This document shows, in pieces, positions 10,637-34,800 of a DNA stretch of 64,000 nt (position 1 is its first letter; each line of letters starts with the position of its first letter). Where the stretch lies: NCBI GenBank assembly GCA_009914755.4, contig CP086569.2, positions 61,472,001 to 61,536,000 on the forward strand. Reading direction: 5' to 3'. This DNA comes from the human T2T-CHM13v2.0 reference genome, Homo sapiens. A program made the translations under genes and the position numbers. The notes under the pieces are model-generated. The model made no database searches. It saw only the letters and a program-made list of their open reading frames with translations, and had not been told where the DNA came from.

Positions 10637-13600
10637 GGAATGGACTCGAAAGCAATGGACTGGAATGGAACTTTCTTGAATGGACTGGAATCAAACGGAA
10701 TGGAATGCAATGCAATCAAATGGCATGGAATAAAATAGAATGAAAGAGAATGAAATGGAATTGAATCGAATGGAATCGAATGGATTGGAAAGGAATAGAA
10801 TGGAATGGAATGGAATTGACTCAAATGGAATGGACTAGAATGGAATGGATTCGAATGGAAGGCAAAGGAATGGAATCTATTGGAATGGACTGTAATGGAA
10901 TGGAATGGAAGGGATTGGAATGGACTCGAATGGAATGGACTGCAATAGAAAGGATTCGAATGGAATGAAAAAGAATTGAATGGAATAAAACAGAATGGAA
11001 TCAAATCGAATGAAATGGAATGGAATAGAAAGGAATGGAATGAAATGGAATGGAAAGGATTCGAATGGAATGCAATCGAATGGAATGCAATCGAATGGAA
11101 TGGAATCGAACGGAATGGAATAAAATGGAAGAAAACTGGCAAGAAATGGAATCGAAATGAATGGAGTGTTATGGAACGGACTCAAAAGGAATTGAATGTA
11201 ATAGAATGGAGTGGAGTGGACTCGAATATAATGGACTGGAATGGAATGAAATCACATGGAATGGGAACGAATGGAATGGAATGGAAAGGAATGGAATCGA
11301 ATGGAAAGGAATCGAATGGAAGGGAATGAAATTGAATCAACAGGAATGGAAGGGAGTAGAATAGACGGTAATGGAATGGACTCGAATAGAATGGACACGA
11401 ATGCTCAAATTGAATGGACTCGAATGGAATGGAAACGAAAGGAATGTCATCGAATGGAATTGAATCGATTGGAATGAAATCACATAGAATGGAGTGGAAT
11501 CAAATGGAATTGAATCGAAAGGAAAGGAAGCGAATGGACTGAAATGAAATGGAATGTAATTGAATGGAAATTAATGCAATGGAATAGAATGGAACGAAAT
11601 TTCACGGAATGGAATCAAACTGAATGGAATCAAATCAATGGAATATAATCAAATGGAATGGAAAGGAATTGAATGGAGTAGATTGGATTGGATGGGATTG
11701 GAATGAAATGTACTGGAAATGACTCGAATTTCATGAAACGGAATGGAATGAATTAGAATGGAATGGACTCGAATGGAATGGAATGTCATGGAATGGCATC
11801 AAATGGAATGGAATCGAATGCGATGGAATGCTATGGAATGGAATGGAATGCATTGGAATGGAATGTCCCCTAATGGAATGTATTCGAGTGGAATGGAATC
11901 GAATATAATGGAGTCTAATGAAAGGGAATTGAAAGGAATGGGACCGAATACAATGGAATATACTGGAATGTAATGTAATGAACTCGAATGTAATTGACTG
12001 GAATGGAATGTACATGAATGGAATGTAATCGAATGGAAAGCAATCCAATGGAATAGAATCTAATGCAATAAAATCGACTCAAATATAGTAGAATGTAATG
12101 GAATGGAGTGCAGTGCAATGGAATGGAATGGAATGGAATGCAATGGAATGGAATGGAATGGAATGGAATGGGATTGAATGGTATGGAATGGATAGTAATG
12201 GACTGGAGTGAAATGGACTGGAAAAGAATGGACACAAATTGAAAGGGCTCGAAAGGAATGGAGTCAAATGGAATGGTCTGGAATGGAATGAACACGAATG
12301 TAATGCAATCCAATAGAATGGAATCGAATGGCATGGAATATAAAGAAATGGAATCGAAGAGAATGGAAACAAATGGAATGGAATTGAATGGAATGGAATT
12401 GAATGGAATGGGAACGAATGGAGTGAAATTGTATGCAGTAGAAGAGAATAGAATGGAATGCAAGCGAAAGGAAAGGAATGGATTGGAATGGAATGGAATT
12501 CATTGGAATGGAAGGGAATGTAGTGTAATGGACAGGCCTGGAATAAAGTGGAATGCTACGGTCTCGAATGGAATAAAAATGTATGGAATGGAATGCAATG
12601 AAACGGAATCGAATGTCATAGAATGTAATGGAATGCAAAAAAATGGACTCCAAAATCATTGACTGGAAAGGCTGGGTGTCGAAAGCAATTGACTCCAATG
12701 GAATGGAATCGAAAGGAATGGAAGTGAATAGAATGGAACTAAACCGAATGGAATGGAATTGATAGGAACGGAATGGAAAGGAATGCAATGATTTGGCATG
12801 GAATGGAATCGAATGGCATCGAATGGAATGGAATGGAATGCAATGGAATGGAATGTATTAGAATGTAATGAACTTTAATGGAATGTACTCGAATGGATTC
12901 GACTGGAATGGAATGTTCTCGAAGTGAATGGACTCCAATGGAATGGATTCGAAAGGAATGGAATCTAATGGAATGGAATTAAATGGAAATGAATCAAATT
13001 GAATAGAACGGAATTGAATTGAATGGAATCGAATGCAATGGAATCTAATGAAACGGAAAGGAAAGGAATGGAATGGATTGGAATGGAATGGGCTGGAATG
13101 GAATGGAATCGAAACGAATGGAATGGAATCGAACTGAAGAGACTGGAATGGAATGCACTGGAATGGAAGGGAATGTAATGGAAGGTTCTCGAAAAAAATG
13201 GAATCGAAAGGAATGGAATTGAATGGAACGGAATAGAGTCGAATGGAATTCAATGGAATGGAATGGACTAGAGTGAAATGGAATCGTACCACAAGGAATG
13301 GACAGGAATAGAATGTTCTCGAATTGAATGGAATCGTATGGAATGGCATCAGTCGGAATGGAATGGACAGCCACGGAATGGAATGGACACCCACGGAATG
13401 GAATGCACTCGAATGCAATGTAGTCGACACTAATGGACTGGAATAGAATGGACTCGACTGATACGGACTCCAATGGAATGGAATCGAATGGAAGGGAATC
13501 GAACGGAATGGACTCGAAGGGAAAAGACTGCAATGGAAAGGTCTCCAATGGAATGGAAATTAATGGAATGGAATGGAATCGAATGAAATGGAGTCAAAAG

Positions 13601-14190
13601 GAATGGAATCGAATGGCAAGAAATCGAATGTAATGGAATCGCAAGGAATTGATGTGAACGGAACGGAATGGAATGGAATCCAAAGGAATGGAATAGAATG
13701 GAATGGAATCGAATGGAAAGGACTCGAATGGAAATCACTCGAATAGAATGCAATTTAATAAAATAGGATCAAATGTAATGGAATGGAATGGAAAGGAATC
13801 GAAACGAAAGGAATGGAGACAGATGGAATGGAATGGAACAGAGAGCAATGGTATAGAATGGAATGGAATCATCTGGAATGGAATTGAATGGAATGGAATA
13901 ATATGAAATGGAAAGGAATGGAATGGAATGCCCTTGAATTAAATGGACTGGAATGGAATGGACTCGAACAGAGTGGAATGGAAAGTGTTGAAATAGAATG
14001 GAATGGACTCGTTTGGAATGGTCTAGTATGCAATGCAATCGACTGGCAGGGAATCAAAAGGAATGTAATCGAATGGATTGGACTGGAATGCAATGGACTC
14101 GAATAGATTGGAAACGGAAAGCAAAGGAATGGAATGGAATAGTATGGAATGGAATGGAAAGGAATGGAGTGGAATAGACTAGAGTGGAAT
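10637..14190 (+). repeat. HOR unit 4 (3554 bp)
   Basis: Anchor at 10637; next at 14191. Shares the 22-bp duplication (around 13355–13395). Confidence 0.85.
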
Positions 14191-17100
14191 GGAATGGACT
14201 CGAAAGCAATGGAGTGGAATGGAACTTTCTTGAATGGACTGGAATCAAACGGAATGGAATGCAATGCAATCAAATGGCATGGAATAAAATAGAATGAAAG
14301 AGAATGAAATGGAATTGAATCGAATGGAATCGAATGGATTGGAAAGGAATAGAATGGAATGGAATGGAATTGACTCAAATGGAATGGACTAGAATGGAAT
14401 GGATTCGAATGGAAGGCAAAGGAATGGAATCTATTGGAATGGACTGTAATGGAATGGAATGGAAGGGATTGGAATGGACTCGAATGGAATGGACTGCAAT
14501 AGAAAGGATTCGAATGGAATGAAAAAGAATTGAATGGAATAGAACAGAATGGAATCAAATCGAATGAAATGGAATGGAATAGAAAGAAATGGAATGAAAT
14601 GAAATGGAAAGGATTCGAATGGAATGCAATCGAATGGAATGCAATCGAATGGAATGGAATCGAACGGAATGGAATAAAATGGAAGAAAACTGGCAAGAAA
14701 TGGAGTCGAAATGAATGGAGTGTTATGGAACCGAGTCAAAAGGAATTGAATGTAATAGAATGGAGTGGAGTGGACTCGAATATAATGGACTGGAATGGAA
14801 TGAAATCACATGGAATGGGAACGAATGGAATGGAATGGAAAGGAATGGAAACGAATGGAAAGGAATCGAATGGAAGGGAGTGAAATTGAATCAACAGGAA
14901 TGGAAGGGAGTAGAATAGACGGTAATGGAATGGACTCGAATAGAATGGACACGAATGCTCAAATTGAATGGACTCGAATGGAATGGAAACGAAAGGAATG
15001 TCATCGAATGGAATTGAATCGATTGGAATGAAATCGCATAGAATGGAGTGGAATCAAATGGAATTGAATCGAAAGGAAAGGAAGCGAATGGACTGAAATG
15101 AAATGGAATGGAATTGAATGGAAATTAATGCAATGGAATAGAATGGAACGAAATTTCACGGAATGGAATCAAACTGAATGGAATCAAATCAATGGAATAT
15201 AATCAAATGGAATGGAAAGGAATTGAATGGAGTAGATTGGATTGGATGGGATTGGAATGAAATGTACTGGAAAGGACTCGAATTTCACGAAACGGAATGG
15301 AATGAATTAGAACGGAATGGACTCGAATGGAATGGAATATCACGGAATGGCATCAAATGGAATGGAATCGAATGCGATGGAATGCTATGGAATGGAATGG
15401 AATGCATTGGAATGGAATGTCCTCTAATGGAATGTATTCGAGTGGAATGGAATCGAATATAATGGAGTCTAATGAAAGGGAATTGAAAGGAATGGGACCG
15501 AATACAATGGAATATACTGGAATGTAATGTAATGAACTCGAATGTAATTGACTGGAATGGAATGTACATGAATGGAATGTAATCGAATGGAAAGCAATCC
15601 AATGGAATAGAATCTAATGCAATAAAATCGACTCAAATAGAGTAGAATGTAATGGAATGGAGTGCAGTGCAATGGAATGGAATGGAATGTAATGCAATGG
15701 AATGGAATGGAATGGAATGGAATGGGATGGAATGGTATGGAATGGATAGTAATGGACTGGAGTGAAATGGACTGGAAAAGAATGGACTCAAATTGAAAGG
15801 GCTCGAAAGGAATGGAGTCAAATGGAATGGTCTGGAATGGAATGAACACGAATGTAATGCAATCCAATAGAATGGAATCGAATGGCATGGAATATAAAGA
15901 AATGGAATCGAAGAGAATGGAAACAAATGGAATGGAATTGAATGGAATGGAATTGAATGGAATGGGAACGAATGGAGTGAAATTGTATGCAGTAGAAGAG
16001 AATAGAATGGAATGCAAGCGAAAGGAAAGGAATGGATTGGAATGGAATGGAATTCATTGGAATGGAAGGGAATGTAGTGTAATGGACAGGCCTGGAATAA
16101 AGTGGAATGCTACGGTCTCGAATGGAATAAAAATGTATGGAATGGAATGCAATGAAACGGAATCGAATGTCATAGAATGTAATGGAATGCAAAAAAATGG
16201 ACTCCAAAATCATTGACTGGAAAGGCTGGGTGTCGAAAGGAATTGACTCCAATGGAATGGAATCGAATGGAATGGAAGTGAATAGAATGGAACTAAATCG
16301 AATGGAATGGAATTGATAGGAACGGAATGGAAAGGAATGCAATGATTTGGCATGGAATGGAATCGAATGGCATCGAATGGAATGGAATGGAATGCAATGG
16401 AATGGAATGTATTAGAATGTAATGAACTTTAATGGAATGAACTCGAATGGATTCGACTGGAATGGAATGTTCTCGAAGTGAATGGACTCCAATGGAATGG
16501 ATTCGAAAGGAATGGAATCTAATGGAATGGAATTAAATGGAAATGAATCAAATTGAATAGAACGGAATTGAATTGAATGGAATCGAATGCAATGGAATCT
16601 AATGAAACGGAAAGGAAAGGAATGGAATGGATTGGAATGGAATGGGCTGGAATGGAATGGAATCGAAACGAATGGAATGGAATCGAACTGAAGAGACTGG
16701 AATGGAATGCACTGGAATGGAAGGGAATGTAATGGAAGGTTCTCGAAAAAAATGGAATCGAAAGGAATGGAATTGAATGGAACGGAATAGAGTCGAATGG
16801 AATTCAATGGAATGGAATGGACTAGAGTGAAATGGAATCGAACCACAAGGAATGGACAGGAATAGAATGGTCTCGAATTGAATGGAATCGTATGGAATGG
16901 CATCAAACGGAATGGAATGGACAGCCACGGAATGGAATGCACTCGAATGCAATGGAGTCGACACTAATGGACTGGAATAGAATGGACTCGACTGGTACGG
17001 ACTCCAATGGAATGGAATCGAATGGAAGGGAATCGAACGGAATGGACTCGAAGGGAAAAGACTGCAATGGAAAGGTCTCGAATGGAATGGAAATTAATGG

Positions 17101-17724
17101 AATGGAATGGAATCGAATGAAATGGAGTCAAAAGGAATGGAATCGAATGGCAAGAAATCGAATGTAATGGAATCACAAGGAATGGATGGGAATGGAACGG
17201 AATGGAATGGAATCCAAAGGAATGGAATAGAATGGAATGGAATCGAATGGAAAGGACTCGAATGGAAATCACTCGAATAGAATGCAATTTAATAAAATAG
17301 GATCAAATGTAATGGAATGGAATGGAAAGGAATCGAAACGAAAGGAATGGAGACAGATGGAATGGAATGGAACAGAGAGCAATGGTATAGAATGGAATGG
17401 AATCATCTGGAATGGAATTGAATGGAATGGAATAATATGAAATGGAATGGAATGGAATGGAATGCCCTTGAATTAAATGGACTGGAATGGAATGGACTCG
17501 AACAGAGTGGAATGGAAAGTGTTGAAATAGAATGGAATGGACTCCTTTGGAATGGTCTAGTATGCAATGCAATCGACTGGCAGAGAATCAAGAGGAATGT
17601 AATCGAATGGAAAGGACTGGAATGCAATGGAATCGAATAGATTGGAAACGGAATGCAAAGGAATGGAATGGAATAGTATGGAATGGAATGGAAAGGAATG
17701 GAGTGGAATAGACTAGAGTGGAAT
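14191..17724 (+). repeat. HOR unit 5 (3534 bp)
   Basis: Anchor at 14191; next at 17725. Confidence 0.85.
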
Positions 17725-20700
17725 GGAATGGACTCGAAAGCAATGGACTGGAATGGAACTTTCTTGAATGGACTGGAATCAAACGGAATGGAATGCAATG
17801 CAATCAAATGGCATGGAATAAAATAGAATGAAAGAGAATCAAACGGAATTGAATCGAATGGAATCGAATGGATTGGAAAGGAATAGAATGGAATGGAATG
17901 GAATTGACTCAAATGGAATGGACTAGAATGGAATGGATTCGAATGGAAGGCAAAGGAATGGAATCTATTGGAATGGACTGTAATGGAATGGAATGTAAGG
18001 GATTGGAATGGACTCAAATGGAATGGACTGCAATAGAAAGGATTCGAATGGAATGAAAAAGAATTGAATGGAATAAAACAGAATGGAATCAAATCGAATG
18101 AAATGGAATGGAATAGAAAGGAATGGAAAGGATTCGAATGGAATGCAATCGAATGGAATGCAATCGAATGGAATGGAATCGAACGGAATGGAATAAAATG
18201 GAAGAAAACTGGCAAGAAATGGAATCGAAATGAATGGAAGTGTTATGGAACGGACTCATAAGGAATTGAATGTAATAGAATGGAGTGGAGTGGACTCGAA
18301 TATAATGGACTGGAATGGAATGAAATCACATGGAATGGGAACGAATGGAATGGAATGGAAAGGAATGGAATCGAATGGAAAGGAATTGAATGGAAGGGAA
18401 TGAAATTGAATCAACAGGAATGGAAGGGAATAGAATAGACGGTAATGGAATGGACTCGAATAGAATGGACACGAATGCTCAAATTTAATGGACTCGAATG
18501 GAATGGAAACGAAAGGAATGTCATCGAATGGAATTGAATCGATTGGAATGAAATGGCATAGAATGGAGTGGAATCAAATGGAATTGAATCGAAAGGAAAG
18601 GAAGCGAATGGACTGAAATGAAATGGAATGGAATGGAATAGAAAGTAATGCAGTGGAATAGAATGGAACGAAATTTCACGGAATGGAATCAAACTGAATG
18701 GAATCAAATCAATGGAATATAATCAAATGGAATGGAAAGGAATTGAATGGAGTAGATTGGATTGGATGGGATTGGAATGAAATTTACTGGACAGGACTCG
18801 AATTTCATGAAACGGAATGGAATGAATTGGAATGGAATGGACTCGAATGGAATGGAATGTCACGGAATGGCATCAAATGGAATGGAATCGAATGCAATGG
18901 AATGCTATGGAATGGAATGGAATGCATTGGAATGGAATGTCCTCTAATGGAATGGATTCGAGTGGAATGGAATCGAATATAATGGAGTCGAATGAAATGG
19001 AATTGAAAGGAATGGGATCCAATACAATGGAATATACTGGAATGTAATGTAATGAACTCGAATGTAATTGACTGGAATGGAATGTACATGAATGGTATGT
19101 AATCGAATGGAAAGTAATCCAATGGAATAAAATCTAATGCAATAAAATCGACTCATATAGAATAGAATGTAATGGAATGGAGTGCAGTGCAATGGAATGG
19201 AATGGAATGGAACGCAATGGAATGGAATGGAATTGAATGGAATGGGATGGAATGGTATGGAATGGATAGTAATGGACTGGAGTGAAATGGACTGGAAAGG
19301 AATGGACTTAAATTGAAAGGGCTCGAAAGGAATGGAGTCAAATGGAATGGTCTGGAATGGAGTGAATACGAATGTAATGCAATCCAATAGAATGGAATCG
19401 AATGGCATGGAATATAAAGAAATGGAATCGAAGAGAATGGAAACAAATGGAATGGAATTGAATGGAATGGAATTGAATGGAATGGGAACGAATGGAGTGA
19501 AATTGTATGCAGTAGAAGAGAATAGAATGGAATACAAGCGAAAGGAAAGGAATGGATAGGAATGGAATGGAATTCATTGGAATGGAAGGGAATGTAGTGT
19601 AATGGACAGGCCTGGAATAAAGTGGAATGCTACGGTCTCGAATGGAATAAAAATGTATGGAATGGAATGCAATGAAACGGAATCGAATGTCATAGAATGT
19701 AATGGAATGCAGAAAAATGGAATCCAAAATCATTGACTGGAAAGGCTGGGTGTCGAAAGGAATTGACTCCAATGGAATGGAATCGGATGGAATGGAAGTG
19801 AATAGAATCGAACTAAATCGAATGGAATTGAATTGATAGGAACGGAATACAAAGGAATGCAATGATTTGGCATGGAATGGAATCGAATGGCATCGAATGG
19901 AATGGAATGGAATGCAATGGAATGGAATGTACTAGAATGTAATGAACATTAATGGAATCTACTCGAATGGATTCTACTGGAATGGAATGTTCTGGAAGTG
20001 AATGGACTCCAATGGAATGGATTCGAAAGGAATGGAATCGAACGGAATGGAATCTAATGCAATGGAATTAAATGGAAAGGAATCAAATTGAATAGCACGG
20101 AATTGAATTGAATGGAATCGAATGCAATGGAATCTATTGAAACGGAAAGGAAAGGAATGGAATGGAATGGAATGGGCTGGAATGGAATGGAATCGAAACG
20201 AATGGAATGGAATCGAACTGAAGAGAATGGAAAGGAATGCACTGGAATGGAAGGGAGTGTAATGGAAGGTTCTCGAAAAAAATGGAATCGAAAGGAATGG
20301 AATTGAATGGAACGGAATAGAGTCGAATGGAATTCAATGGAATGGAATGGACTAGAGTGAAATGGAATCGAACCACAAGGAATGGACAGGAATAGAATGG
20401 TCTCGAATTGAATGGAATCGTATGGAATGGCATCAAACGGAATGGAATGGACAGCCACGGAATGGAATGCACTCGAATGCAATGGAGTCGACACTAATGG
20501 ACTGGAATAGAATGGACTCGACTGGTACGGACTCCAATGGAATGGAATCGAATGGAAGGGAATCGATCGGAATGGACTCGAAGGGAAAAGACTGCAATGG
20601 AAAGGTCTCGAATGGAATGGAAATTAATGGAATGGAATGGAATCGAATGAAATGGAGTCAAAAGGAATGGAATCGAATGGCAAGAAATCGAATGTAATGG

Positions 20701-21254
20701 AATCACAAGGAATGGATGTGAACGGAACGGAATGGAATGGAATCCAAAGGAATGGAATAGAATGGAATGGAATCGAATGGAAAGGACTCGAATGGAAATC
20801 ACTCGAATAGAATGCAATTTAATAAAATAGGATCAAATGTAATGGAATGGAATGGAAAGGAATCGAAACGAAAGGAATGGAGACAGATGGAATGGAATGG
20901 AACAGAGAGCAATGGTATAGAATGGAATGGAATCATCTGGAATGGAATTGAATGGAATGGAATAATATGAAATGGAATGGAATGGAATGGAATGCCCTTG
21001 AATTAAATGGACTGGAATGGAATGGACTCGAACAGAGTGGAATGGAAAGTGTTGAAATAGAATGGAATGGACTCCTTTGGAATGGTCTAGTATGCAATGC
21101 AATCGACTGGCAGAGAATCAAGAGGAATGTAATCGAATGGAAAGGACTGGAATGCAATGGAATCGAATAGATTGGAAACGGAATGCAAAGGAATGGAATG
21201 GAATAGTATGGAATGGAATGGAAAGGAATGGAGTGGAATAGACTAGAGTGGAAT
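17725..21254 (+). repeat. HOR unit 6 (3530 bp). First of three near-identical units.
   Basis: Anchor at 17725; next at 21255. Shares private variants with units 7 and 8: actcataagg in place of actcaaaagg around 18250, and a 15-bp deletion around 18120. Confidence 0.85.
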
Positions 21255-24200
21255 GGAATGGACTCGAAAGCAATGGACTGGAATGGAACTTTCTTGAATG
21301 GACTGGAATCAAACGGAATGGAATGCAATGCAATCAAATGGCATGGAATAAAATAGAATGAAAGAGAATCAAACGGAATTGAATCGAATGGAATCGAATG
21401 GATTGGAAAGGAATAGAATGGAATGGAATGGAATTGACTCAAATGGAATGGACTAGAATGGAATGGATTCGAATGGAAGGCAAAGGAATGGAATCTATTG
21501 GAATGGACTGTAATGGAATGGAATGTAAGGGATTGGAATGGACTCAAATGGAATGGACTGCAATAGAAAGGATTCGAATGGAATGAAAAAGAATTGAATG
21601 GAATAAAACAGAATGGAATCAAATCGAATGAAATGGAATGGAATAGAAAGGAATGGAAAGGATTCGAATGGAATGCAATCGAATGGAATGCAATCGAATG
21701 GAATGGAATCGAACGGAATGGAATAAAATGGAAGAAAACTGGCAAGAAATGGAATCGAAATGAATGGAAGTGTTATGGAACGGACTCATAAGGAATTGAA
21801 TGTAATAGAATGGAGTGGAGTGGACTCGAATATAATGGACTGGAATGGAATGAAATCACATGGAATGGGAACGAATGGAATGGAATGGAAAGGAATGGAA
21901 TCGAATGGAAAGGAATTGAATGGAAGGGAATGAAATTGAATCAACAGGAATGGAAGGGAATAGAATAGACGGTAATGGAATGGACTCGAATAGAATGGAC
22001 ACGAATGCTCAAATTTAATGGACTCGAATGGAATGGAAACGAAAGGAATGTCATCGAATGGAATTGAATCGATTGGAATGAAATGGCATAGAATGGAGTG
22101 GAATCAAATGGAATTGAATCGAAAGGAAAGGAAGCGAATGGACTGAAATGAAATGGAATGGAATGGAATAGAAAGTAATGCAATGGAATAGAATGGAACG
22201 AAATTTCACGGAATGGAATCAAACTGAATGGAATCAAATCAATGGAATATAATCAAATGGAATGGAAAGGAATTGAATGGAGTAGATTGGATTGGATGGG
22301 ATTGGAATGAAATTTACTGGACAGGACTCGAATTTCATGAAACGGAATGGAATGAATTGGAATGGAATGGACTCGAATGGAATGGAATGTCACGGAATGG
22401 CATCAAATGGAATGGAATCGAATGCAATGGAATGCTATGGAATGGAATGGAATGCATTGGAATGGAATGTCCTCTAATGGAATGGATTCGAGTGGAATGG
22501 AATCGAATATAATGGAGTCGAATGAAATGGAATTGAAAGGAATGGGATCCAATACAATGGAATATACTGGAATGTAATGTAATGAACTCGAATGTAATTG
22601 ACTGGAATGGAATGTCCATGAATGGTATGTAATCGAATGGAAAGTAATCCAATGGAATAAAATCTAATGCAATAAAATCGACTCAAATAGAATAGAATGT
22701 AATGGAATGGAGTGCAGTGCAATGGAATGGAATGGAATGGAACGCAATGGAATGGAATGGGATGGAATGGTATGGAATGGATAGTAATGGACTGGAGTGA
22801 AATGGACTGGAAAGGAATGGACTTAAATTGAAAGGGCTCGAAAGGAATGGAGTCAAATGGAATGGTCTGGAATGGAGTGAACACGAATGTAATGCAATCC
22901 AATAGAATGGAATCGAATGGCATGGAATATAAAGAAATGGAATCGAAGAGAATGGAAACAAATGGAATGGAATTGAATGGAATGGAATTGAATGGAATGG
23001 GAACGAATGGAGTGAAATTGTATGCAGTAGAAGAGAATAGAATGGAATACAAGCGAAAGGAGAGGAATGGATAGGAATGGAATGGAATTCATTGGAATGG
23101 AAGGGAATGTAGTGTAATGGACAGGCCTGGAATAAAGTGGAATGCTACGGTCTCGAATGGAATAAAAATGTATGGAATGGAATGCAATGAAACGGAATCG
23201 AATGTCATAGAATGTAATGGAATGCAGAAAAATGGAATCCAAAATCATTGACTGGAAAGGCTGGGTGTCGAAAGGAATTGACTCCAATGGAATGGAATCG
23301 GATGGAATGGAAGTGAATAGAATCGAACTAAATCGAATGGAATTGAATTGATAGGAACGGAATGCAAAGGAATGCAATGATTTGGCATGGAATGGAATCG
23401 AATGGCATCGAATGGAATGGAATGGAATGCAATGGAATGGAATGTACTAGAATGTAATGAACATTAATGGAATCTACTCGAATGGATTCTACTGGAATGG
23501 AATGTTCTGGAAGTGAATGGACTCCAATGGAATGGATTCGAAAGGAATGGAATCGAACGGAATGGAATCTAATGCAATGGAATTAAATGGAAAGGAATCA
23601 AATTGAATAGCACGGAATTGAATTGAATGGAATCGAATGCAATGGAATCTAATGAAACGGAAAGGAAAGGAATGGAATGGAATGGAATGGGCTGGAATGG
23701 AATGGAATCGAAACGAATGGAATGGAATCGAACTGAAGAGAATGGAATGGAATGCACTGGAATGGAAGGGAGTGTAATGGAAGGTTCTCGAAAAAAATGG
23801 AATCGAAAGGAATGGAATTGAATGGAACGGAATAGAGTCGAATGGAATTCAATGGAATGGAATGGAATAGAGTGAAATGGAATCGAACCACAAGGAATGG
23901 ACAGGAATAGAATGGTCTCGAATTGAATGGAATCGTATGGAATGGCATCAAACGGAATGGAATGGACAGCCACGGAATGGAATGCACTCGAATGCAATGG
24001 AGTCGACACTAATGGACTGGAATAGAATGGACTCGACTGGTACGGACTCCAATGGAATGGAATCGAATGGAAGGGAATCGAACGGAATGGACTCGAAGGG
24101 AAAAGACTGCAATGGAAAGGTCTCGAATGGAATGGAAATTAATGGAATGGAATGGAATCGAATGAAATGGAGTCAAAAGGAATGGAATCGAATGGCAAGA

Positions 24201-24769
24201 AATCGAATGTAATGGAATCACAAGGAATGGATGTGAACGGAACGGAATGGAATGGAATCCAAAGGAATGGAATAGAATGGAATGGAATCGAATGGAAAGG
24301 ACTCGAATGGAAATCACTCGAATAGAATGCAATTTAATAAAATAGGATCAAATGTAATGGAATGGAATGGAAAGGAATCGAAATGAAAGGAATGGAGACA
24401 GATGGAATGGAATGGAAGAGAGAGCAATGGTATAGAATGGAATGGAATCATCTGGAATGGAATTGAATGGAATGGAATAATATGAAATGGAATGGAATGG
24501 AATGGAATGCCCTTGAATTAAATGGACTGGAATGGAATGGACTCGAACAGAGTGGAATGGAAAGTGTTGAAATAGAATGGAATGGACTCCTTTGGAATGG
24601 TCTAGTATGCAATGCAATCGACTGGCAGAGAATCAAGAGGAATGTAATCGAATGGAAAGGACTGGAATGCAATGGAATCGAATAGATTGGAAACGGAATG
24701 CAAAGGAATGGAATGGAATAGTATGGAATGGAATGGAAAGGAATGGAGTGGAATAGACTAGAGTGGAAT
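21255..24769 (+). repeat. HOR unit 7 (3515 bp). Near-identical to units 6 and 8.
   Basis: Anchor at 21255; next at 24770. The extra 15 bp of shortening comes from contraction of the pure pentamer tract around 22735–22770. Confidence 0.85.
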
Positions 24770-27700
24770 GGAATGGACTCGAAAGCAATGGACTGGAATG
24801 GAACTTTCTTGAATGGACTGGAATCAAACGGAATGGAATGCAATGCAATCAAATGGCATGGAATAAAATAGAATGAAAGAGAATCAAACGGAATTGAATC
24901 GAATGGAATCGAATGGATTGGAAAGGAATAGAATGGAATGGAATGGAATTGACTCAAATGGAATGGACTAGAATGGAATGGATTCGAATGGAAGGCAAAG
25001 AAATGGAATCTAGTGGAATGGACTGTAATGGAATGGAATGTAAGGGATTGGAATGGACTCAAATGGAATGGACTGCAATAGAAAGGATTCGAATGGAATG
25101 AAAAAGAATTGAATGGAATAAAACAGAATGGAATCAAATCGAATGAAATGGAATGGAATAGAAAGGAATGGAAAGGATTCGAATGGAATGCAATCGAATG
25201 GAATGCAATCGAATGGAATGGAATCGAACGGAATGGAATAAAATGGAAGAAAACTGGCAAGAAATGGAATCGAAATGAATGGAAGTGTTATGGAACGGAC
25301 TCATAAGGAATTGAATGTAATAGAATGGAGTGGAGTGGACTCGAATATAATGGACTGGAATGGAATGAAATCACATGGAATGGGAACGAATGGAATGGAA
25401 TGGAAAGGAATGGAATCGAATGGAAAGGAATTGAATGGAAGGGAATGAAATTGAATCAACAGGAATGGAAGGGAATAGAATAGACGGTAATGGAATGGAC
25501 TCGAATAGAATGGACACGAATGCTCAAATTTAATGGACTCGAATGGAATGGAAACGAAAGGAATGTCATCGAATGGAATTGAATCGATTGGAATGAAATG
25601 GCATAGAATGGAGTGGAATCAAATGGAATTGAATCGAAAGGAAAGGAAGCGAATGGACTGAAATGAAATGGAATGGAATGGAATAGAAAGTAATGCAATG
25701 GAATAGAATGGAACGAAATTTCACGGAATGGAATCAAACTGAATGGAATCAAATCAATGGAATATAATCAAATGGAATGGAAAGGAATTGAATGGAGTAG
25801 ATTGGATTGGATGGGATTGGAATGAAATTTACTGGACAGGACTCGAATTTCATGAAACGGAATGGAATGAATTGGAATGGAATGGACTCGAATGGAATGG
25901 AATGTCACGGAATGGCATCAAATGGAATGGAATCGAATGCAATGGAATGCTATGGAATGGAATGGAATGCATTGGAATGGAATGTCCTCTAATGGAATGG
26001 ATTCGAGTGGAATGGAATCGAATATAATGGAGTCGAATGAAATGGAATTGAAAGGAATGGGATCCAATACAATGGAATATACTGGAATGTAATGTAATGA
26101 ACTCGAATGTAATTGACTGGAATGGAATGTACATGAATGGTATGTAATCGAATGGAAAGTAATCCAATGGAATAAAATCTAATGCAATAAAATCGACTCA
26201 AATAGAATAGAATGTAATGGAATGGAGTGCAGTGCAATGGAATGGAATGGAATGGAACGCAATGGAATGGAATGGAATTGAATGGAATGGGATGGAATGG
26301 TATGGAATGGATAGTAATGGACTGGAGTGAAATGGACTGGAAAGGAATGGACTTAAATTGAAAGGGCTCGAAAGGAATGGAGTCAAATGGAATGGTCTGG
26401 AATGGAGTGAATACGAATGTAATGCAATCCAATAGAATGGAATCGAATGGCATGGAATATAAAGAAATGGAATCGAAGAGAATGGAAACAAATGGAATGG
26501 AATTGAATGGAATGGAATTGAATGGAATGGGAACGAATGGAGTGAAATTGTATGCAGTAGAAGAGAATAGAATGGAATACAAGCGAAAGGAGAGGAATGG
26601 ATAGGAATGGAATGGAATTCATTGGAATGGAAGGGAATGTAGTGTAATGGACAGGCCTGGAATAAAGTGGAATGCTACGGTCTCGAATGGAATAAAAATG
26701 TATGGAATGGAATGCAATGAAACGGAATCGAATGTCATAGAATGTAATGGAATGCAGAAAAATGGAATCCAAAATCATTGACTGGAAAGGCTGGGTGTCG
26801 AAAGGAATTGACTCCAATGGAATGGAATCGGATGGAATGGAAGTGAATAGAATCGAACTAAATCGAATGGAATTGAATTGATAGGAACGGAATGCAAAGG
26901 AATGCAATGATTTGGCATGGAATGGAATCGAATGGCATCGAATGGAATGGAATGGAATGCAATGGAATGGAATGTACTAGAATGTAATGAACATTAATGG
27001 AATCTACTCGAATGGATTCTACTGGAATGGAATGTTCTGGAAGTGAATGGACTCCAATGGAATGGATTCGAAAGGAATGGAATCGAACGGAATGGAATCT
27101 AATGCAATGGAATTAAATGGAAAGGAATGAAATTGAATAGCACGGAATTGAATTGAATGGAATCGAATGCAATGGAATCTAATGAAACGGAAAGGAAAGG
27201 AATGGAATGGAATGGAATGGGCTGGAATGGAATGGAATCGAAACGAATGGAATGGAATCGAACTGAAGAGAATGGAATGGAATGCACTGGAATGGAAGGG
27301 AGTGTAATGGAAGGTTCTCGAAAAAAATGGAATCGAAAGGAATGGAATTGAATGGAACGGAATAGAGTCGAATGGAATTCAATGGAATGGAATGGACTAG
27401 AGTGAAATGGAATCGAACCACAAGGAATGGACAGGAATAGAATGGTCTCGAATTGAATGGAATCGTATGGAATGGCATCAAACGGAATGGAATGGACAGC
27501 CACGGAATGGAATGCACTCGAATGCAATGGAGTCGACACTAATGGACTGGAATAGAATGGACTCGACTGGTACGGACTCCAATGGAATGGAATCGAATGG
27601 AAGGGAATCGAACGGAATGGACTCGAAGGGAAAAGACTGCAATGGAAAGGTCTCGAATGGAATGGAAATTAATGGAATGGAATGGAATCGAATGAAATGG

Positions 27701-28299
27701 AGTCAAAAGGAATGGAATCGAATGGCAAGAAATCGAATGTAATGGAATCACAAGGAATGGATGTGAACGGAACGGAATGGAATGGAATCCAAAGGAATGG
27801 AATAGAATGGAATGGAATCGAATGGAAAGGACTCGAATGGAAATCACTCGAATAGAATGCAATTTAATAAAATACGATCAAATGTAATGGAATGGAATGG
27901 AAAGGAATCGAAACGAAAGGAATGGAGACAGATGGAATGGAATGGAACAGAGAGCAATGGTATAGAATGGAATGGAATCATCTGGAATGGAATTGAATGG
28001 AATGGAATAATATGAAATGGAATGGAATGGAATGGAATGCCCTTGAATTAAATGGACTGGAATGGAATGGACTCGAACAGAGTGGAATGGAAAGTGTTGA
28101 AATAGAATGGAATGGACTCCTTTGGAATGGTCTAGTATGCAATGCAATCGACTGGCAGAGAATCAAGAGGAATGTAATCGAATGGAAAGGACTGGAATGC
28201 AATGGAATCGAATAGATTGGAAACGGAATGCAAAGGAATGGAATGGAATAGTATGGAATGGAATGGAAAGGAATGGAGTGGAATAGACTAGAGTGGAAT
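24770..28299 (+). repeat. HOR unit 8 (3530 bp). Near-identical to units 6 and 7.
   Basis: Anchor at 24770; next at 28300. Confidence 0.85.
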
Positions 28300-31200
28300 G
28301 GAATGGACTCGAAAGCAATGGACTGGAATGGAACTTTCTTGAATGGACTGGAATCAAACGGAATGGAATGCAATGCAATCAAATGGCATGGAATAAAATA
28401 GAATGAAAGAGAATCAAACGGAATTGAATCGAATGGAATCGAATGGATTGGAAAGGAATAGAATGGAATGGAATTGACTCAAATGGAATGGACTAGAATG
28501 GAATGGATTCGAATGGAAGGCAAAGGAATGGAATCTATTGGAATGGACTGTAATGGAATGGAATGTAAGGGATTGGAATGGACTCAAATGGAATGGACTG
28601 CAATAGAAAGGATTCGAATGGAATGAAAAAGAATTGAATGGAATAAAACAGAATGGAATCAAATCGAATGAAATGGAATGGAATAGAAAGGAATGGAATG
28701 AAATGGAATGGAAAGGATTCGAATGGAATGCAATCGAATGGAATGCAATCGAATGGAATGGAATCGAACGGAATGTAATAAAATGGAAGAAAACTGGCAA
28801 GAAATGGAATCGAAATGAATGGAGTGTTATGGAACGGACTCAAAAGGAATTGAATGTAATAGAATGGAGTGGAGTGGACTCGAATATAATGGACTGGAAT
28901 GGAATGAAATCACATGGAATGGGAACGAATGGAATGGAATGGAAAGGAATGGAATCGAATGGAAAGGAATCGAATGGAAAGGAATCGAATGGAAGGGAAT
29001 GAAATTGAATCAACAGGAATGGAAGGAAGTAGAATAGACGGTAATGGAATGGACTCGAATAGAATGGACACGAATGTTCAAATTGAGTGGACTCGAATGG
29101 AATGGAAACGAAAGGAATGTCGTCGAATGGAATTGAGTCGATTGGAATGAAATCGCATAGAATGGAGTGGAATCAAATGGAATTGAATCGAAAGGAAAGG
29201 AAGCGAATGGTCTGAAATGAAATGGAATGGAATTGAATGGAAAGTAATGCAAGGGAATAGAATGGAACGAAATTTCACGGAATGGAATCAAACTGAATGG
29301 AATCAAATCAATGGAATATAATCAAATGGCATGGAAAGGAATTGAATGGAGTAGATTGGATAGGATGGGATTGGAATGAAATGTACTGGAAAGGACTCGA
29401 ATTTCATGAAATGGAATGGAATGAACTGGAACGGAATGGACTCGAATGGAATGGAATGTCATGGAATGGCATCAAATGGAATGGCATCAAATGGAATGCT
29501 ATGGAATGGAATGGAATGCATTGGAATGGAATGTCCCCTAATGGAATGGATTCGAGTGGAATGGAATCGAATATAATGGAGTCGAATGAAATGGAATTGA
29601 AAGGAAAGGGATCGAATACAATGGAATATACTGGAATGTAATGTAATGAACTCGAATGTAATTGACTAGAATGGAATGTACATGAATGGAATGCAACCGA
29701 ATGGAAAATAATCCCATGGAATAGAATCTAATGCAATAAAATCGACTCAAATAGAATAGAATGGAATGGAATGGAGTGCAGTGCAATGGAATGGAATGGA
29801 ATGGAATGCAATGGAATGGAATGGAATGGGATGGAATGGTATGGGATGGATAGAAATGGACTGGAGTGAAATGGACTGGAAAGTAATGGACTCAAATTGA
29901 AAGAGCTCGAAAGAATGGAGTCAAATGGAATGGTCTGGAATGGAATGAACACGAATGTAATGCAATCCAATAGAATGGAATCGAATGGCATGGAATATAA
30001 AGAAATGGAATCGAAGAGAATGGAAACGAATGGAATGGAATTGAATGGAATGGAATTGAATGGAATGGGAACGAATGGAGTGAAATTGTATGCAGTAGAA
30101 GAGAATAGAATGGAATGCAAGCGAAAGGAAAGGAATGGATTGGAATGGAATGGAATTCATTGGAATGGAAGGGAATGTATTGCAATGGACAGGCCTTTAA
30201 TAAAGTGGAATGCTACGGTCTCGAATGGAATAAAAATGTATGGAATGGAATTCAATGAAACGGAATCGAATGTCATAGAATGTAATGGAATGCAATAAAA
30301 TGGAATCCAAAATCATTGACTGGAAAGGCTGGGTGTAGAAAGGAATTGACTCCAATGGAATGGAATCGAATGGAATGGAAGTGAATAGAATCGAAGTAAA
30401 TCGAATGGAATGGAATTCTTAGGAACGGAATGGAAAGGAGTGCAATGATTTGGCATGGAATGGAATCGAATGGCATCGAATGGAGTGGAATGGAATGCAA
30501 TGGAATGGAATGTATTAGAATGTAATGAACATTAATGGAATGTACTCTAATGGATTCGACTGGAATGGAATGTTCTGGAAGTGAAAGGACTCCAATGGAA
30601 TGGATTTGAAAGGAATGGAATCTAATGGAATGGAATTAAATGGAAACGAATCAAATTGAATAGCACGGAATTGAATTGAATGGAATCGAATGCAATGGAA
30701 TCTAATGAAATGGAAAGGAAAGGAATGGAATGGAATGGAATGGGCTGGAGTTGAATGGAATCGATACGAATGGAATGGAATAGAACTGAAGAGACTGGAA
30801 TGGAATTCACTGGAATGGAAGGGAGTGTAATGGAAGGATCTCGAAAAAAATGGAATCGAATGGAATGGAATTGAATGGAACGGAATAGAGTCGAATGGAA
30901 TTCAATGGAATTGAATGGACTAGAGTGAAATGGAATCGAACCACAAGGAATGGACAGGAATAGAATGGTCTCGAATTGAATGGAATCGTATGGAATGGCA
31001 TCAAACGGAATGGAATGGACAGCCACGGAATGGAATGCACTCGAATGCAATGGAATCGAAACTAATGGACTGGAATAGAATGGACTCGACTGGTACGGAC
31101 TCCAATGGAATGGAATCGAAAGGAAGGGAATCGAACGGAATGGACTCGAAGGGAAAAGACTGCAATGGAAAGGTCTCGAATGGAATGGAAATTAATGGAA

Positions 31201-31822
31201 TGGAATGGAATCGAATGAAATGGAGTCAAAAGGAATGGAATCGAATGGCAAGAAATCGAATGTAATGGAATCGCAAGGAATTGATGTGAACGGAACGGAA
31301 TGGAATGGAATCCAAAGGAATGGAATAGAATGGAATGGAATCGAATGGAAAGGACTCGAATGGAAATCACTCGAATAGAATGCAATTTAATAAAATAGGA
31401 TCAAATGTAATGGAATGGAATGGAAAGGAATCGAAACGAAAGGAATGGAGACAGATGGAATGGAATGGAACAGAGAGCAATGGTATAGAATGGAATGGAA
31501 TCATCTGGAATGGAATTGAATGGAATGGAATAACATGAAATGGAATGGAATGGAATGGAATGCCCTTGAATTAAATGGACTGGAATGGAATGGACTCGAA
31601 CAGAGTGTAATGGAAAGTGTTGAAATAGAATGGAATGGACTCCTTTGGAATGGTCTAGTATGCAATGCAATCGACCGGCAGGGAATCAAAAGGAATGTAA
31701 TCGAATGGATTGGACTGGAATGCAATGGACTCGAATAGATTGGAAACGGAATGCAAAGGAATGGAATGGAATAGTATGGAATGGAATGGAAAGGAATGGA
31801 GTGGAATAGACTAGAGTGGAAT
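28300..31822 (+). repeat. HOR unit 9 (3523 bp)
   Basis: Anchor at 28300; next at 31823. Confidence 0.85.
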
Positions 31823-34800
31823 GGAATGGACTGGAAAGCAATGGACTGGAATGGAACTTTCCTGAATGGACTGGAATCAAACGGAATGGAATGCAATGCA
31901 ATCAAATGGCATGGAATAAGATAGAATGAAAGAGAATCAAATGGAATTGAATGGAATGGAATCGAATGGATTGGAAAGGAATAGAATGGAATGGAATGGA
32001 ATTGACTCAAATGGAATGGACTAGAATGGAATGGATTCGAATGGAAGGCAAAGGAATGGAATCTATTGGAATGGACTGTAATGGAATGGAATGGAAGGGA
32101 TTGGAATGGACTCGAATGGAATGGACTGCAATAGAAAGGATTCGAATGGAATGAAAAAGAATTGAATGGAATAGAACAGAATGGAATCAAATCGAATGAA
32201 ATGGAATGGAATAGAAAGGAATGGAATGAAATGGAATGGAAAGGATTCGAATGGAATGCAATCGAATGGAATGGAATCGAACGGAATGGAATAAAATGGA
32301 AGAAAACTGGCAAGAAATGGAATCGAAATGAATGGAGTGTTATGGAACGGACTCAAAAGGAATTGAATGTAATAGAATGGAGTGGAGTGGACTCGAATAT
32401 AATGGACTGGATTGGAATGAAATCACATGGAATGGGAACGAATGGAATGGAATGGAAAGGAATGGAATCGAATGGAAAGGAATCGAATGGAAGAGAATGA
32501 AATTGAATCAACAGGAATGGAAGGGAATAGAATAGACGGTAATGGAATGGACTCGAATAGAATGGACACGAATGCTCAAATTGAATGGACTCGAATGGAA
32601 TGGAAACGAAAGGAATGTCATCGAATGGAATTGAATCGATTGGAATGAAATCGCATAGAATGGAGTGGAATCAAATGGAATTGAATCGAAAGGAAAGGAA
32701 GCGAATGGACTGAAATGAAATGGAATGGAATTGAATGGAAAGTAATGCAATGGAATAGAATGGAACGAAATTTCACGGAATGGAATGAAACTGAATGGAA
32801 TCAAATCAATGGAATCTAATCAAGTGGAATGGAAAGGAATTGAATGGAGTAGATTGGATTGGATGGGATTGGAATGAAATGTACTGGAAAGGACTCGAGT
32901 TTCATGAAACGGAATGGAATGAATTGGAACGGAATGGACTCGAATGGAATGGAATGTCATGGAATGGCATCAAATGGAATGGCATCAAACGGAATGGAAT
33001 CGAATGCAATGGAATGCTATGGAATGGAATGGAATGCATTGGAATGGAATGTCCTCTAATGGAATGGATTCGAGTGGAATGGAATCGAATATAATGGAGT
33101 CGAATGAAATGGAATTGAAAGGAATGGGATCGAATACAATGGAATATACTGGAATGTAATGTAATGAACTCGAATGTAATTGACTGGAATGGAATGTACA
33201 TGAATGGAATGTAATCGAATGGAAAGTAATCCAATGGAATAGAATCTAATGCAATAAAATCGACTCAGATAGAGTAGAATGTAATGGAATGGAGTGCAGT
33301 GCAAAGGAATGGAATGGAATGGAATGCAATGGAATGGAATGGAATGGAATGGAATGGAATGGGATGGAATGGTATGGAATGGATCGTAATGGACTGGAGT
33401 GAAATGGACTGGAAATGAATGGAGTCAAATTGAAAGGGCTCGAAAGGAATGGAGTCAAAAGGAATGGTCTGGAATGGAATGAACACGAATGTAATGCAAT
33501 CCAATAGAATGGAATCGAATGGCATGGAATATAAAGAAATGGAATCGAAGAGAATGGAAACAAATGGAATGGAATTGAATGGAATGGAATTGAATGGAAT
33601 GGGAACGAATGGAGTGAAATTGTATGCAGTAGAAGAGAATAGAATGGAATGCAAGCGAAAGGAAAGGAATGGATTGGAATGGAATGGAATTCATTGGAAT
33701 GGAAGGGAATGTAGTGTAATGGACAGGCCTGGAATAAAGTGGAATGCTACGGTCTCAAATGGAATAAAAATATATGGAATGGAATGCAATGAAACGGAAT
33801 CGAATGTCATAGAATGTAATGGAATGCAAAAAAATGGAATCCAAAATCATTGACTGGAAAGGCTGGGTGTCGAAAGGAATTGACTCCAATGGAATGGAAT
33901 CGGATGGAATGGAAGTGAATAGAATCGAACTAAATCGAATGGAATGGAATTGATAGGAACGGAATGGAAAGGAATGCAATGATTTGGCATGGAATGGAAT
34001 CGAATGGCATCGAATGGAATGGAATGGAATGCAATGGAATGGAATGTATTAGAATCTAATGAACTTTAATGGAATGTACTCGAATGGATTCGACTGGAAT
34101 GGAATGTTCTGGAAGTGAATGGACTCCAATGGAATGGATTCAAAAGGAATGGAGTCGTACGGAATGGAATCTAATGGAATGGAATTAAATGGAAATGAAT
34201 CAAATTGAATAGAACGGAATTGAATTGAATGGAATCGAATGCAATGGAATCTAATGAAACGGAAAGGAAAGGAATGGAATGGAATGGAATGGGCTGGAAT
34301 GGAAAGGAATCGAAACGAATGGAATGGAATCGAACTGAAGAGACTGGAATGGAATGCACTGGAATGGAAGGGAGTGTAATGGAAGGTTCTCGAAAAAAAT
34401 GGAATCGAATGGAATGGAATTGAGTGGAACGGAATAGAGTCGAATGGAATTGAATGGAATGGAATGGACTAGAGTGAAATGGAATCGAACCACAAGGAAT
34501 GGACAGGAATAGAATGGTCTCGAATTTAATGGAATCGTATGGAATGGCGTCAAAGGGAATGGAATGGACAGCCACGGAATGGAATGCACTCGAATGCAAT
34601 GGAGTCGAAACTAATGGACTGGAATAGAATGGACTCGACTGGTACGGACTCCAATGGAATGGAATCGAATGGAAGGGAATCGAACGGAATGGACTCGAAG
34701 GGAAAAGACTGCAATGGAAAGGTCTCGAATGGAATGGAAATTAATGGAATGGAATGGAATCGAATGAAATGGAGTCAAAAGGAATGGAATCGAATGGCAA

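What the first reader, a model, noticed from the sequence alone, without database searches (positions are those of the whole stretch)
17725..28299. Block of three almost identical consecutive HOR units, indicating a recent local amplification.
Units 6, 7 and 8 (periods 3530, 3515, 3530 bp) share private variants absent from the flanking units 5 and 9. The first is an A-to-T change giving actcataagg (~18250, ~21780, ~25295), which produces identical truncated 65-aa artefact ORFs at 18064, 21594 and 25109. The second is a 15-bp deletion (gaatgaaatggaatg) in the nearby nrkew...kgfew region. Long artefact ORFs (270 aa at 17403, 20933 and 24448; 98 aa at 18411, 21941 and 25456) are letter-for-letter identical between these units. 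Their identity to each other is visibly higher than to other units. This suggests a recent tandem triplication by unequal crossing-over, which is the expected homogenisation mechanism in satellite arrays.
Basis: seen in the sequence. Interest (0 to 1): 0.5.

Follow-up and report, generated by a model that had tools for sequence, protein, structure and literature searches.

The report
Local triplication inside human Y satellite DYZ1
Three neighbouring 3.5-kb repeat units in a human Y-chromosome-type satellite array (DYZ1/HSat3) are near-identical copies of one diverged unit. This is a real but ordinary trace of the unequal exchange already known to reshape such arrays.

Summary
The whole 64-kb window is one (GGAAT)n-derived satellite with a ~3.55-kb nested period. 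It matches published descriptions of human DYZ1/HSat3A6 (Yq12).

Three consecutive units are 99.6-99.8% identical to each other and 97.0-97.7% identical to every other unit. The closest pair elsewhere in the window is 99.3% identical. The three form a neighbour-joining clade with 100% bootstrap support.

They share 35 derived variants: 33 substitutions, a 1-bp insertion and a 15-bp deletion. These are absent from the other 12 units and almost absent from 54 independent DYZ1 contigs.

- The block is 11.4-12.0 kb, or 3.2-3.4 periods, running from about 16,728/17,184 to 28,586/28,689. It is not exactly three units.
- One of the three 270-aa artefact ORFs differs by 2 residues.
- On the male-specific Y, the exchange must be between sister chromatids or within one chromatid.
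- "Recent" means 0.23-0.40% divergence. That is roughly 90-155 kyr at the pedigree-measured Yq12 mutation rate.

The best explanation is tandem amplification of one diverged unit by unequal sister-chromatid exchange, plus one further event that produced the fractional edge. This process is already documented for Yq12. Interest is low.

The parts
1..64000 (+). Continuous DYZ1/HSat3A6-type satellite array. GGAAT is on the + strand, with 18 units of 3,513-3,564 bp and one of 4,494 bp.
   Evidence: TRF reports a single GGAAT array. GC and GC skew are constant along the window. There is one HaeIII site per unit, GC is 38.7% and there is 1 CpG per 35.5 bp. These match the published DYZ1 description.
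17184..28586 (+). Minimal extent of the near-identical block, from the first to the last block-private variant. The maximal extent is 16,728-28,689, giving 3.23-3.39 periods.
   Evidence: Carrier table of private variants. Differences between copies. The last non-block state on the left is at about 16,727. The first non-block state on the right is at 28,690.
17115..20644 (+). Block copy I (3,530 bp, block register).
   Evidence: Differs by 12 and 14 substitutions from copies II and III. Is 97.0-97.6% identical to units outside the block.
20645..24159 (+). Block copy II (3,515 bp). It has its own 15-bp deletion after 22,749.
24160..27689 (+). Block copy III (3,530 bp).
   Evidence: Differs by 8 substitutions from copy II. 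Bootstrap support for the I+II+III clade is 100%.
27690..28586 (+). Partial fourth copy. It carries the nine private variants of unit offsets ~2,440-3,270 and has its own 5-bp deletion after 28,469. It lacks the 15-bp deletion, the +A insertion and the A>T change.
   Evidence: Alignment columns 3459-4321 are carried by four consecutive units. Columns 4425-4579 are carried by only three.
18254..18263 (+). ACTCATAAGG, with the private A>T at 18,259. It recurs at 21,784 and 25,299 and creates the TAA stop that ends the 65-aa artefact ORFs.
18119..18120 (+). Site of the private 15-bp deletion. It recurs after 21,649 and 25,164. A private 1-bp A insertion lies at 18,238, 21,768 and 25,283.
29027..30912 (+). 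Unusually diverged 1.9-kb segment of the unit just downstream of the block. It is context, not part of the amplification.
   Evidence: It holds 47 singleton substitutions, 23-24 per kb against about 4 per kb elsewhere. The mutation spectrum is unremarkable.

Best explanation
The window is a stretch of human-type DYZ1 (HSat3A6), the ~3.5-kb nested pentamer satellite of Yq12.

One unit-length stretch of this array had accumulated about 35 private changes while it was effectively single-copy. It was then amplified in tandem, in quick succession relative to the mutation rate, to give a contiguous run of about 3.3 periods.

The most likely mechanism is out-of-register (unequal) sister-chromatid exchange by whole periods. 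Two or three such gains are needed. One further event explains the fractional edge. That could be a deletion-type exchange between a block copy and a flanking unit, leaving a hybrid edge unit, or a ~0.8-kb gene conversion.

Afterwards each copy acquired a few changes of its own: 16 singleton substitutions, plus 15-bp and 5-bp slippage deletions.

What is shown: the array type, the tight clade, the derived shared variants, and the block's extent and continuity. What is inferred: the exchange mechanism, the order of events and the dating.

The ORFs are by-products of a pentamer repeat that has no stop codon in any frame. Nothing here is coding.
For: Array identity.
- The pentamer and the period are shown.
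- There is one HaeIII site per unit, GC is 38.7% and there is 1 CpG per 35.5 bp. Published DYZ1 values are ~3.5 kb, single-cut HaeIII fragments, 38% GC and 1 CpG per 35 bp.
- The T2T-Y paper describes DYZ1 as a Y-specific HSat3 subfamily of ~3.6-kb nested repeats of CATTC.
- Two DYZ1 primers recalled from memory each match about once per unit (19 near-exact sites for one; 14 exact plus 5 one-mismatch sites for the other). They sit 154 bp apart wherever both match exactly, which is at 12 units.
- The window consensus is 99.7-99.8% identical to contaminant contigs in unrelated metagenome and bacterial assemblies. Another such contig (L041, 98.1% identical) is labelled human gut metagenome.

Amplification.
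- Identity is 99.6-99.8% within the block and 97.0-97.7% to other units, with 100% bootstrap support.
- The 35 shared variants are derived: block-state k-mers give 3 hits in 54 outside contigs, against 1,034 for the consensus state.
- The block is uninterrupted over 3.3 periods. All 35 fully shared variants are present in every copy the block spans. Three further variants are shared by only two copies (19,234/26,279; 19,367/26,412; 23,062/26,592).
- Differences between copies are almost all singletons, and the three-copy tree is unresolved at 52% versus 48%. That indicates rapid successive events.
- The block shares about 8 derived states with its left-hand neighbours, so it is of local origin.

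Literature.
- Local expansion and contraction is said to homogenise DYZ1 units.
- De novo whole-unit structural variants in Yq12, all affecting DYZ2 units, arise about once per Y transmission.
Against: - The block is not a whole number of periods (3.23-3.39), so simple whole-period exchange alone does not produce it.
- Two informative sites conflict: 19,367/26,412 group copies I and III, while 23,062/26,592 group copies II and III.
- Exchange leaves no novel junction, so the mechanism cannot be read from the sequence.
- Only 18 of the thousands of DYZ1 units on a Y are visible in the window. The outside contigs are mostly collapsed short-read consensus sequences, so a minor subfamily carrying the same variants elsewhere on the Y would have been missed.
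- No reads are available to validate the assembly.
Confidence: 0.8

Rival explanations
1. Gene conversion without a change in copy number. One diverged unit overwrote its neighbours non-reciprocally, homogenising units that already existed.
For: Interlocus gene conversion is frequent in Yq12. 29% of de novo SNVs there match non-orthologous sites, and 17% of events in a later pedigree analysis were classed as conversion. The fractional fourth copy (27,690-28,586) could be a ~0.8-kb conversion tract. Three of the 16 singleton differences match states seen in other window units.
Against: This would need at least two full-unit conversions (about 3.5 kb each) that abut exactly. No patch of recipient sequence is left at any of the 35 marker sites across 11.4 kb. 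From general knowledge, conversion tracts are usually well under 1 kb. The copies also share the block-specific unit length, set by the 15-bp deletion and the +1 bp.
Confidence: 0.08
2. Assembly artefact. The assembler over-expanded, or mis-joined, reads from one or two near-identical units.
For: Yq12 is the hardest region of the Y to assemble. No reads are available here.
Against: The copies are distinguishable. Each pair differs by 8-14 substitutions, and there are separate 15-bp and 5-bp indels. A 15-20 kb read could therefore span the 11.5-kb block and anchor it uniquely. A false duplication would more likely give identical copies.
Confidence: 0.05
3. Remnant or import of a DYZ1 subfamily that is abundant elsewhere in Yq12. 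The 3.3 units would be a small domain of a widespread variant, not a local triplication of a unique founder.
For: The window shows only 18 units. It already contains distinct domains: units 1-5 against units 10-17, with 23 diagnostic sites. Duplications of up to 5 Mb move whole blocks around Yq12.
Against: Block states are almost absent from 133 kb of independent DYZ1 contigs, with 3 hits against 1,034. The block shares derived states with its immediate left-hand neighbours. Within-block divergence is at least 2-3 times lower than for any other pair of units in the window.
Confidence: 0.06

Closest known systems
DYZ1 / HSat3A6 arrays of human Yq12 (Rhie et al. 2023, bioRxiv 10.1101/2022.12.01.518724; Hallast et al. 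2023, bioRxiv 10.1101/2022.12.01.518658)
   Same: A pentamer (GGAAT/CATTC) satellite with a ~3.5-3.6 kb nested period. It has one HaeIII site per unit, 38% GC and 1 CpG per 35 bp. Units are mostly at least 98% alike. It evolves by unequal exchange, with local homogenisation.
   Different: Nothing differs in kind. Units here are 3,513-3,564 bp, whereas the most common HaeIII fragment reported is 3,569 bp. The window shows no DYZ2 boundary, so its position on the Y cannot be confirmed.
Local expansion blocks in other Y satellites, for example the DYZ19 'rounds of mutation/expansion' and the ~80-kb duplication dated to ~36 kyr (Hallast et al. 2023)
   Same: Derived variants mark a subset of adjacent units that expanded recently within an older array.
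   Different: The scale is about 11.5 kb and 3.3 units here, against tens of kb to Mb. No haplogroup comparison is available here to date the event.
Layered homogenisation of alpha-satellite HOR arrays in centromeres
   Same: Neighbouring units are more alike than distant ones. Young, near-identical units lie among older, diverged ones.
   Different: The base repeat is 5 bp, not a 171-bp monomer. There is no kinetochore role. 'HOR' applies only loosely.
Smith-type unequal crossover model of tandem-repeat evolution (general knowledge)
   Same: It predicts clusters of identical adjacent repeats, hybrid edge units and gains of whole periods.
   Different: On the male-specific Y, only sister-chromatid or intrachromatid exchange is available. 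The fractional block length here needs an extra step.

Membership tests
DYZ1 / HSat3A6 (human Yq12 satellite) | Derived from the pentamer GGAAT/CATTC. | tested here: met
   TRF gives a period-5 GGAAT consensus over 1..63,991. The top five 5-mers are rotations of GGAAT.
DYZ1 / HSat3A6 (human Yq12 satellite) | Nested tandem period of ~3.5-3.6 kb. | tested here: met
   Units are 3,513-3,564 bp, plus one of 4,494 bp.
DYZ1 / HSat3A6 (human Yq12 satellite) | One HaeIII (GGCC) site per unit, about 38% GC, and about 1 CpG per 35 bp. | tested here: met
   There are 19 GGCC sites spaced 3,515-3,564 bp apart, with two exceptions. GC is 38.7% and there is 1 CpG per 35.5 bp.
DYZ1 / HSat3A6 (human Yq12 satellite) | High sequence identity to a reference DYZ1 consensus. 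| tested here: inconclusive
   No reference sequence was available. Indirect evidence: DYZ1 primers recalled from memory each match about once per unit and sit 154 bp apart where both match exactly. The window consensus is also 99.7-99.8% identical to contaminant contigs in metagenome and bacterial assemblies. The primer sequences could not be found in the paper library.
DYZ1 / HSat3A6 (human Yq12 satellite) | Located on Yq12, alternating with DYZ2/HSat1B arrays. | not testable with these tools
   The window has no DYZ2 and no array edge. No human genome collection was searchable.
Tandem amplification by unequal (sister-chromatid) exchange | The copies are contiguous, head-to-tail and in register. 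| tested here: met
   Lags are 3,530, 3,515 and 3,530 bp. The run of private variants is uninterrupted.
Tandem amplification by unequal (sister-chromatid) exchange | The copies are monophyletic and share derived variants. | tested here: met
   Bootstrap support is 100%. There are 35 shared variants, polarised as derived by the outside contigs.
Tandem amplification by unequal (sister-chromatid) exchange | The gain is a whole number of periods. | tested here: not met
   The block spans 3.23-3.39 periods. One further event, an edge exchange or a conversion, is needed.
Tandem amplification by unequal (sister-chromatid) exchange | Copy number at the locus differs between related chromosomes. | not testable with these tools
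   No other Y assemblies were accessible.
Higher-order repeat (HOR) in the alpha-satellite sense | Units are far more alike than the base repeats inside them. | tested here: met
   Units are 97-99.8% alike. Pentamers match their consensus at only 64%. The base repeat is 5 bp rather than a ~171-bp monomer, so the term is used loosely.

The most novel reading that the evidence does not exclude
The amplification and the unusually diverged 1.9-kb segment immediately downstream (29,027-30,912; about 6 times the background density of private substitutions) could be two products of a single error-prone repair event, such as break-induced replication with template switching. In that case satellite expansion and bursts of divergence would be mechanistically coupled. 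The evidence neither supports nor excludes this. The two features are adjacent, and both long-branch stretches occupy the same part of the unit (offsets ~100-2,050). But the mutation spectrum is ordinary, and the block's own private variants are shared by all its copies, so they predate the amplification.
Probability: 0.04. Interest if true: 0.4.

Novelty: already known. Interest (0 to 1): 0.1.

Why it matters
It matters little on its own. It is a clean, small-scale example of how Yq12 satellite arrays turn over: a diverged unit is amplified locally and then starts to diverge again.

Its practical value is as a marker. The block-private k-mers and the copy-specific variants could be used to find this locus in complete Y assemblies. 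One could then count its copies across haplogroups and calibrate the rate of unit gain and loss against the pedigree-measured Yq12 mutation rate.

It also shows that the long ORFs in such windows are artefacts of sequence composition.

Tried and rejected
- Coding potential. A perfect (GGAAT)n has no stop codon in any of the six frames. Pfam gave only sub-threshold hits to repeat families: Extensin_1 at 23.5 bits against a cut-off of 105, and Pentapeptide_4 at 20.3 against 38. An exact-product look-up of the 270-aa ORF found nothing. The ORFs are artefacts.
- Structured RNA. Rfam gave no match at gathering score anywhere in the window.
- Mutational signature. Block-private variants and the hyper-diverged neighbour both show a broad spectrum close to the window background. 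There is no excess of CpG transitions and no strand-coordinated pattern. APOBEC-type clustering was therefore rejected.
- Two-step doubling (1 to 2 to 4). This predicts that copies I and III, and copies II and IV, share variants. None do consistently.
- Citing the DYZ1 primers from the literature. Five look-ups failed, so the primer match rests on memory.
It was replaced by an exact-run scan.
- The 15-mer GAATGAAATGGAATG first seemed to show the deletion in other units too. Inspection showed those were point changes, and the 15-bp deletion is private to the block.
Full report
**What the window is**

Tandem Repeats Finder reports a single GGAAT array over 1..63,991. GC content (38-39%) and GC skew (+0.53 to +0.60) are flat along the window, so every unit has the same orientation. 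Distances between repeated 24-mers peak at 3,513-3,564 bp.

Cutting at a conserved 39-mer gives 17 complete units of 3,513-3,564 bp and one of 4,494 bp. There is one HaeIII GGCC site per unit, GC is 38.7% and there is 1 CpG per 35.5 bp.

These values match the published description of DYZ1/HSat3A6. Hallast et al. give a unit of ~3.5 kb, single-cut HaeIII fragments, 38% GC and 1 CpG per 35 bp (bioRxiv 10.1101/2022.12.01.518658). The T2T-Y paper calls DYZ1 a Y-specific HSat3 subfamily of ~3.6-kb nested repeats of CATTC (bioRxiv 10.1101/2022.12.01.518724).

Two DYZ1 sexing primers that I recalled from memory each match about once per unit. Wherever both match exactly, at 12 units, they sit 154 bp apart. 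I could not find them in the paper library.

A 37-nt pattern taken from the unit recovered 43 metagenome contigs and 11 contigs in bacterial or archaeal genome assemblies. The best of them are 99.7-99.8% identical to the window's non-block consensus. One, at 98.1%, is labelled human gut metagenome. That distribution is what human DNA contamination looks like.

I therefore treat the window as human DYZ1. Its position in Yq12 cannot be tested, because the window contains no DYZ2 boundary.

**Checking the observation**

In an alignment of all units, three consecutive units differ from each other by 11-14 substitutions. They differ from every other unit by 58-107.

I re-cut the array in a register where three whole units lie inside the block: 17,115-20,644, 20,645-24,159 and 24,160-27,689, with lengths 3,530, 3,515 and 3,530 bp. 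In that register they differ by 12, 14 and 8 substitutions, which is 99.6-99.8% identity. They are 97.0-97.7% identical to all other units. Among all other pairs, the minimum divergence is 0.70% and the median 2.14%.

A neighbour-joining tree puts the three together in 300 of 300 bootstrap replicates. The order within the trio is unresolved, at 52% versus 48%.

Without any alignment, the three longest exact matches one period apart (1,459, 1,117 and 716 bp) all fall in the block.

- ACTCATAAGG occurs only at 18,254, 21,784 and 25,299.
- The A>T change makes a TAA stop that ends three identical 65-aa ORFs.
- The 15-bp deletion is private to the same three copies.
- A private 1-bp insertion lies 21 bp upstream of the A>T site.

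Two details were wrong. The 270-aa ORF at 24,448 differs from the other two by 2 residues. A 270-aa ORF also exists outside the block, at 31,501.

**Anatomy of the block**

In total, 35 variants are carried by all block copies and by none of the 12 units outside units 5-9. They are 33 substitutions, the 1-bp insertion and the 15-bp deletion. Two more variants are shared with the next unit downstream. Three are shared by only two copies.

The number of carriers depends on position within the period.
- Variants at unit offsets ~110-1,950 are in three copies.
- Nine variants at offsets ~2,440-3,270 are in four copies.
- The three variants at offsets ~3,370-3,515 are in three copies.

Read along the sequence, the block is (B-C-A)x3 followed by a fourth B. 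Here B, C and A are the segments at offsets ~2,440-3,270, ~3,370-3,515 and ~110-1,950.

The first private variant is at 17,184 and the last at 28,586. The nearest non-block states are at 16,727 and 28,690. The block is therefore 11.4-12.0 kb, or 3.23-3.39 periods.

**Polarity and origin**

I made 25-mers for 33 of the private variants and counted them in the 54 outside contigs (133 kb). The block state was found 3 times and the consensus state 1,034 times. The block states are therefore derived, and the block haplotype is not a major DYZ1 variant. One caveat is that most of those contigs are collapsed short-read consensus sequences, which would hide a minor subfamily.

The window also has two domains, units 1-5 and units 10-17, separated by 23 diagnostic sites. 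The outside contigs show that the states of units 1-4 are the derived ones. The block shares about eight of these derived states with its left-hand neighbours, mostly at unit offsets above 2,000. That argues for a founder of local origin and against an import from a distant array.

**What happened after the amplification**

Differences between copies are almost all singletons against an otherwise uniform column. There are 16 such substitutions, plus a 15-bp deletion after 22,749 and a 5-bp deletion after 28,469. Both deletions are multiples of the pentamer, as slippage would give.

Only two sites are informative for the order of copying, and they conflict. The copies therefore arose in quick succession relative to the mutation rate.

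Pairwise divergence is 0.23-0.40%. The pedigree-measured Yq12 rate is 3.86e-7 per bp per generation (PMC12240836). At that rate the copies separated about 2,900-5,200 generations ago, roughly 90-155 kyr at 30 years per generation. At a euchromatic Y rate near 3e-8, a figure I took from memory, the estimate would be 1.1-2.0 Myr. The dating is an inference with wide error, and some of the differences may be conversions rather than mutations.

**Mechanism**

The best reading is tandem amplification by unequal exchange in whole periods. For DYZ1 on the male-specific Y, this must be between sister chromatids or within one chromatid.

The literature already describes this process for Yq12.
- Local expansion and contraction homogenise units.
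- De novo whole-unit structural variants, all in DYZ2 units, arise about once per Y transmission.

Whole-period exchange cannot by itself give 3.3 periods of one haplotype. One more event is needed. It could be a deletion-type exchange between a block copy and a flanking unit, which leaves a hybrid edge unit. It could also be a ~0.8-kb conversion of the flank.

Conversion alone is a weak rival. It would need at least two full-length (about 3.5 kb) tracts that abut exactly, with no recipient sequence left at any of the 35 markers.

An assembly artefact cannot be excluded without reads. But each pair of copies differs by 8-14 substitutions and by distinct indels, so long reads should place the copies uniquely.

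**Other checks**

- The ORFs are artefacts. A perfect GGAAT array has no stop codon in any frame, and Pfam gives only sub-threshold hits to repeat families.
- Rfam finds nothing.
- The mutation spectra of the block-private variants and of the hyper-diverged neighbour resemble the background.

**Verdict**

This is a routine instance of a documented process in a documented satellite. The novelty rating is 'already known', and interest is low (0.1).

Noticed in passing
window 29027-30912: The unit immediately downstream of the block has a 1.9-kb stretch with 47 singleton substitutions. That is 23-24 per kb against about 4 per kb elsewhere. It covers the same part of the unit (offsets ~170-2,050) in which the block is most diverged. 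The spectrum is ordinary, and only 2 of unit 9's 52 singleton states occur in the outside DYZ1 contigs.
   Followed up: partly
window 39459-43952 (duplication about 40,240-42,140): One unit is 4,494 bp instead of ~3,550 bp because of an internal tandem duplication of about 0.9 kb. Identity at a lag of 905 bp is above 93% over 40,425-41,238. Both primer sites occur twice in this unit.
   Followed up: partly
window 43953-51063: Units 13 and 14 are the second-closest pair in the window, with 33 substitutions (99.3% identity) and 100% bootstrap support. This looks like an older local duplication of the same kind.
   Followed up: partly
window 549-18274 versus 32372-61719: The window has two sequence domains, units 1-5 and units 10-17, separated by 23 diagnostic sites. 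The outside contigs show that the states of units 1-4 are the derived ones. All 11 sites specific to units 1-5 lie at unit offsets 155-1,982. Sites shared by units 1-8 or 1-9 lie mostly beyond offset 2,000. The units are therefore mosaics of differently related segments.
   Followed up: partly
window 50284; window 30187-30209: There is an extra HaeIII (GGCC) site at 50,284, which splits one unit into fragments of 1,434 and 2,128 bp. One copy of the reverse primer site carries a CC>AA change, although its GGCC is kept.
   Followed up: no
loci L044-L054 (genome contigs) and L001-L043 (metagenome contigs): Contigs of this satellite, up to 99.8% identical to the window consensus, sit in 11 species-representative bacterial or archaeal genome assemblies. 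These include several Streptomyces and Actinomadura JCM strains, a Nitrosocosmicus MAG and a Polyangiaceae MAG. A further 43 are metagenome contigs. This is most likely human male DNA contamination in public assemblies. Many of the contigs are about 3.6 kb, meaning the array was collapsed to a single unit.
   Followed up: partly
window 19367/22882/26412 and 19547/23062/26592: Two variants 180 bp apart group the three copies in conflicting ways: copies I+III share T, while copies II+III share G. Neither site is a CpG. The conflict needs a short conversion, a recurrent change, or a recombinant third copy.
   Followed up: partly
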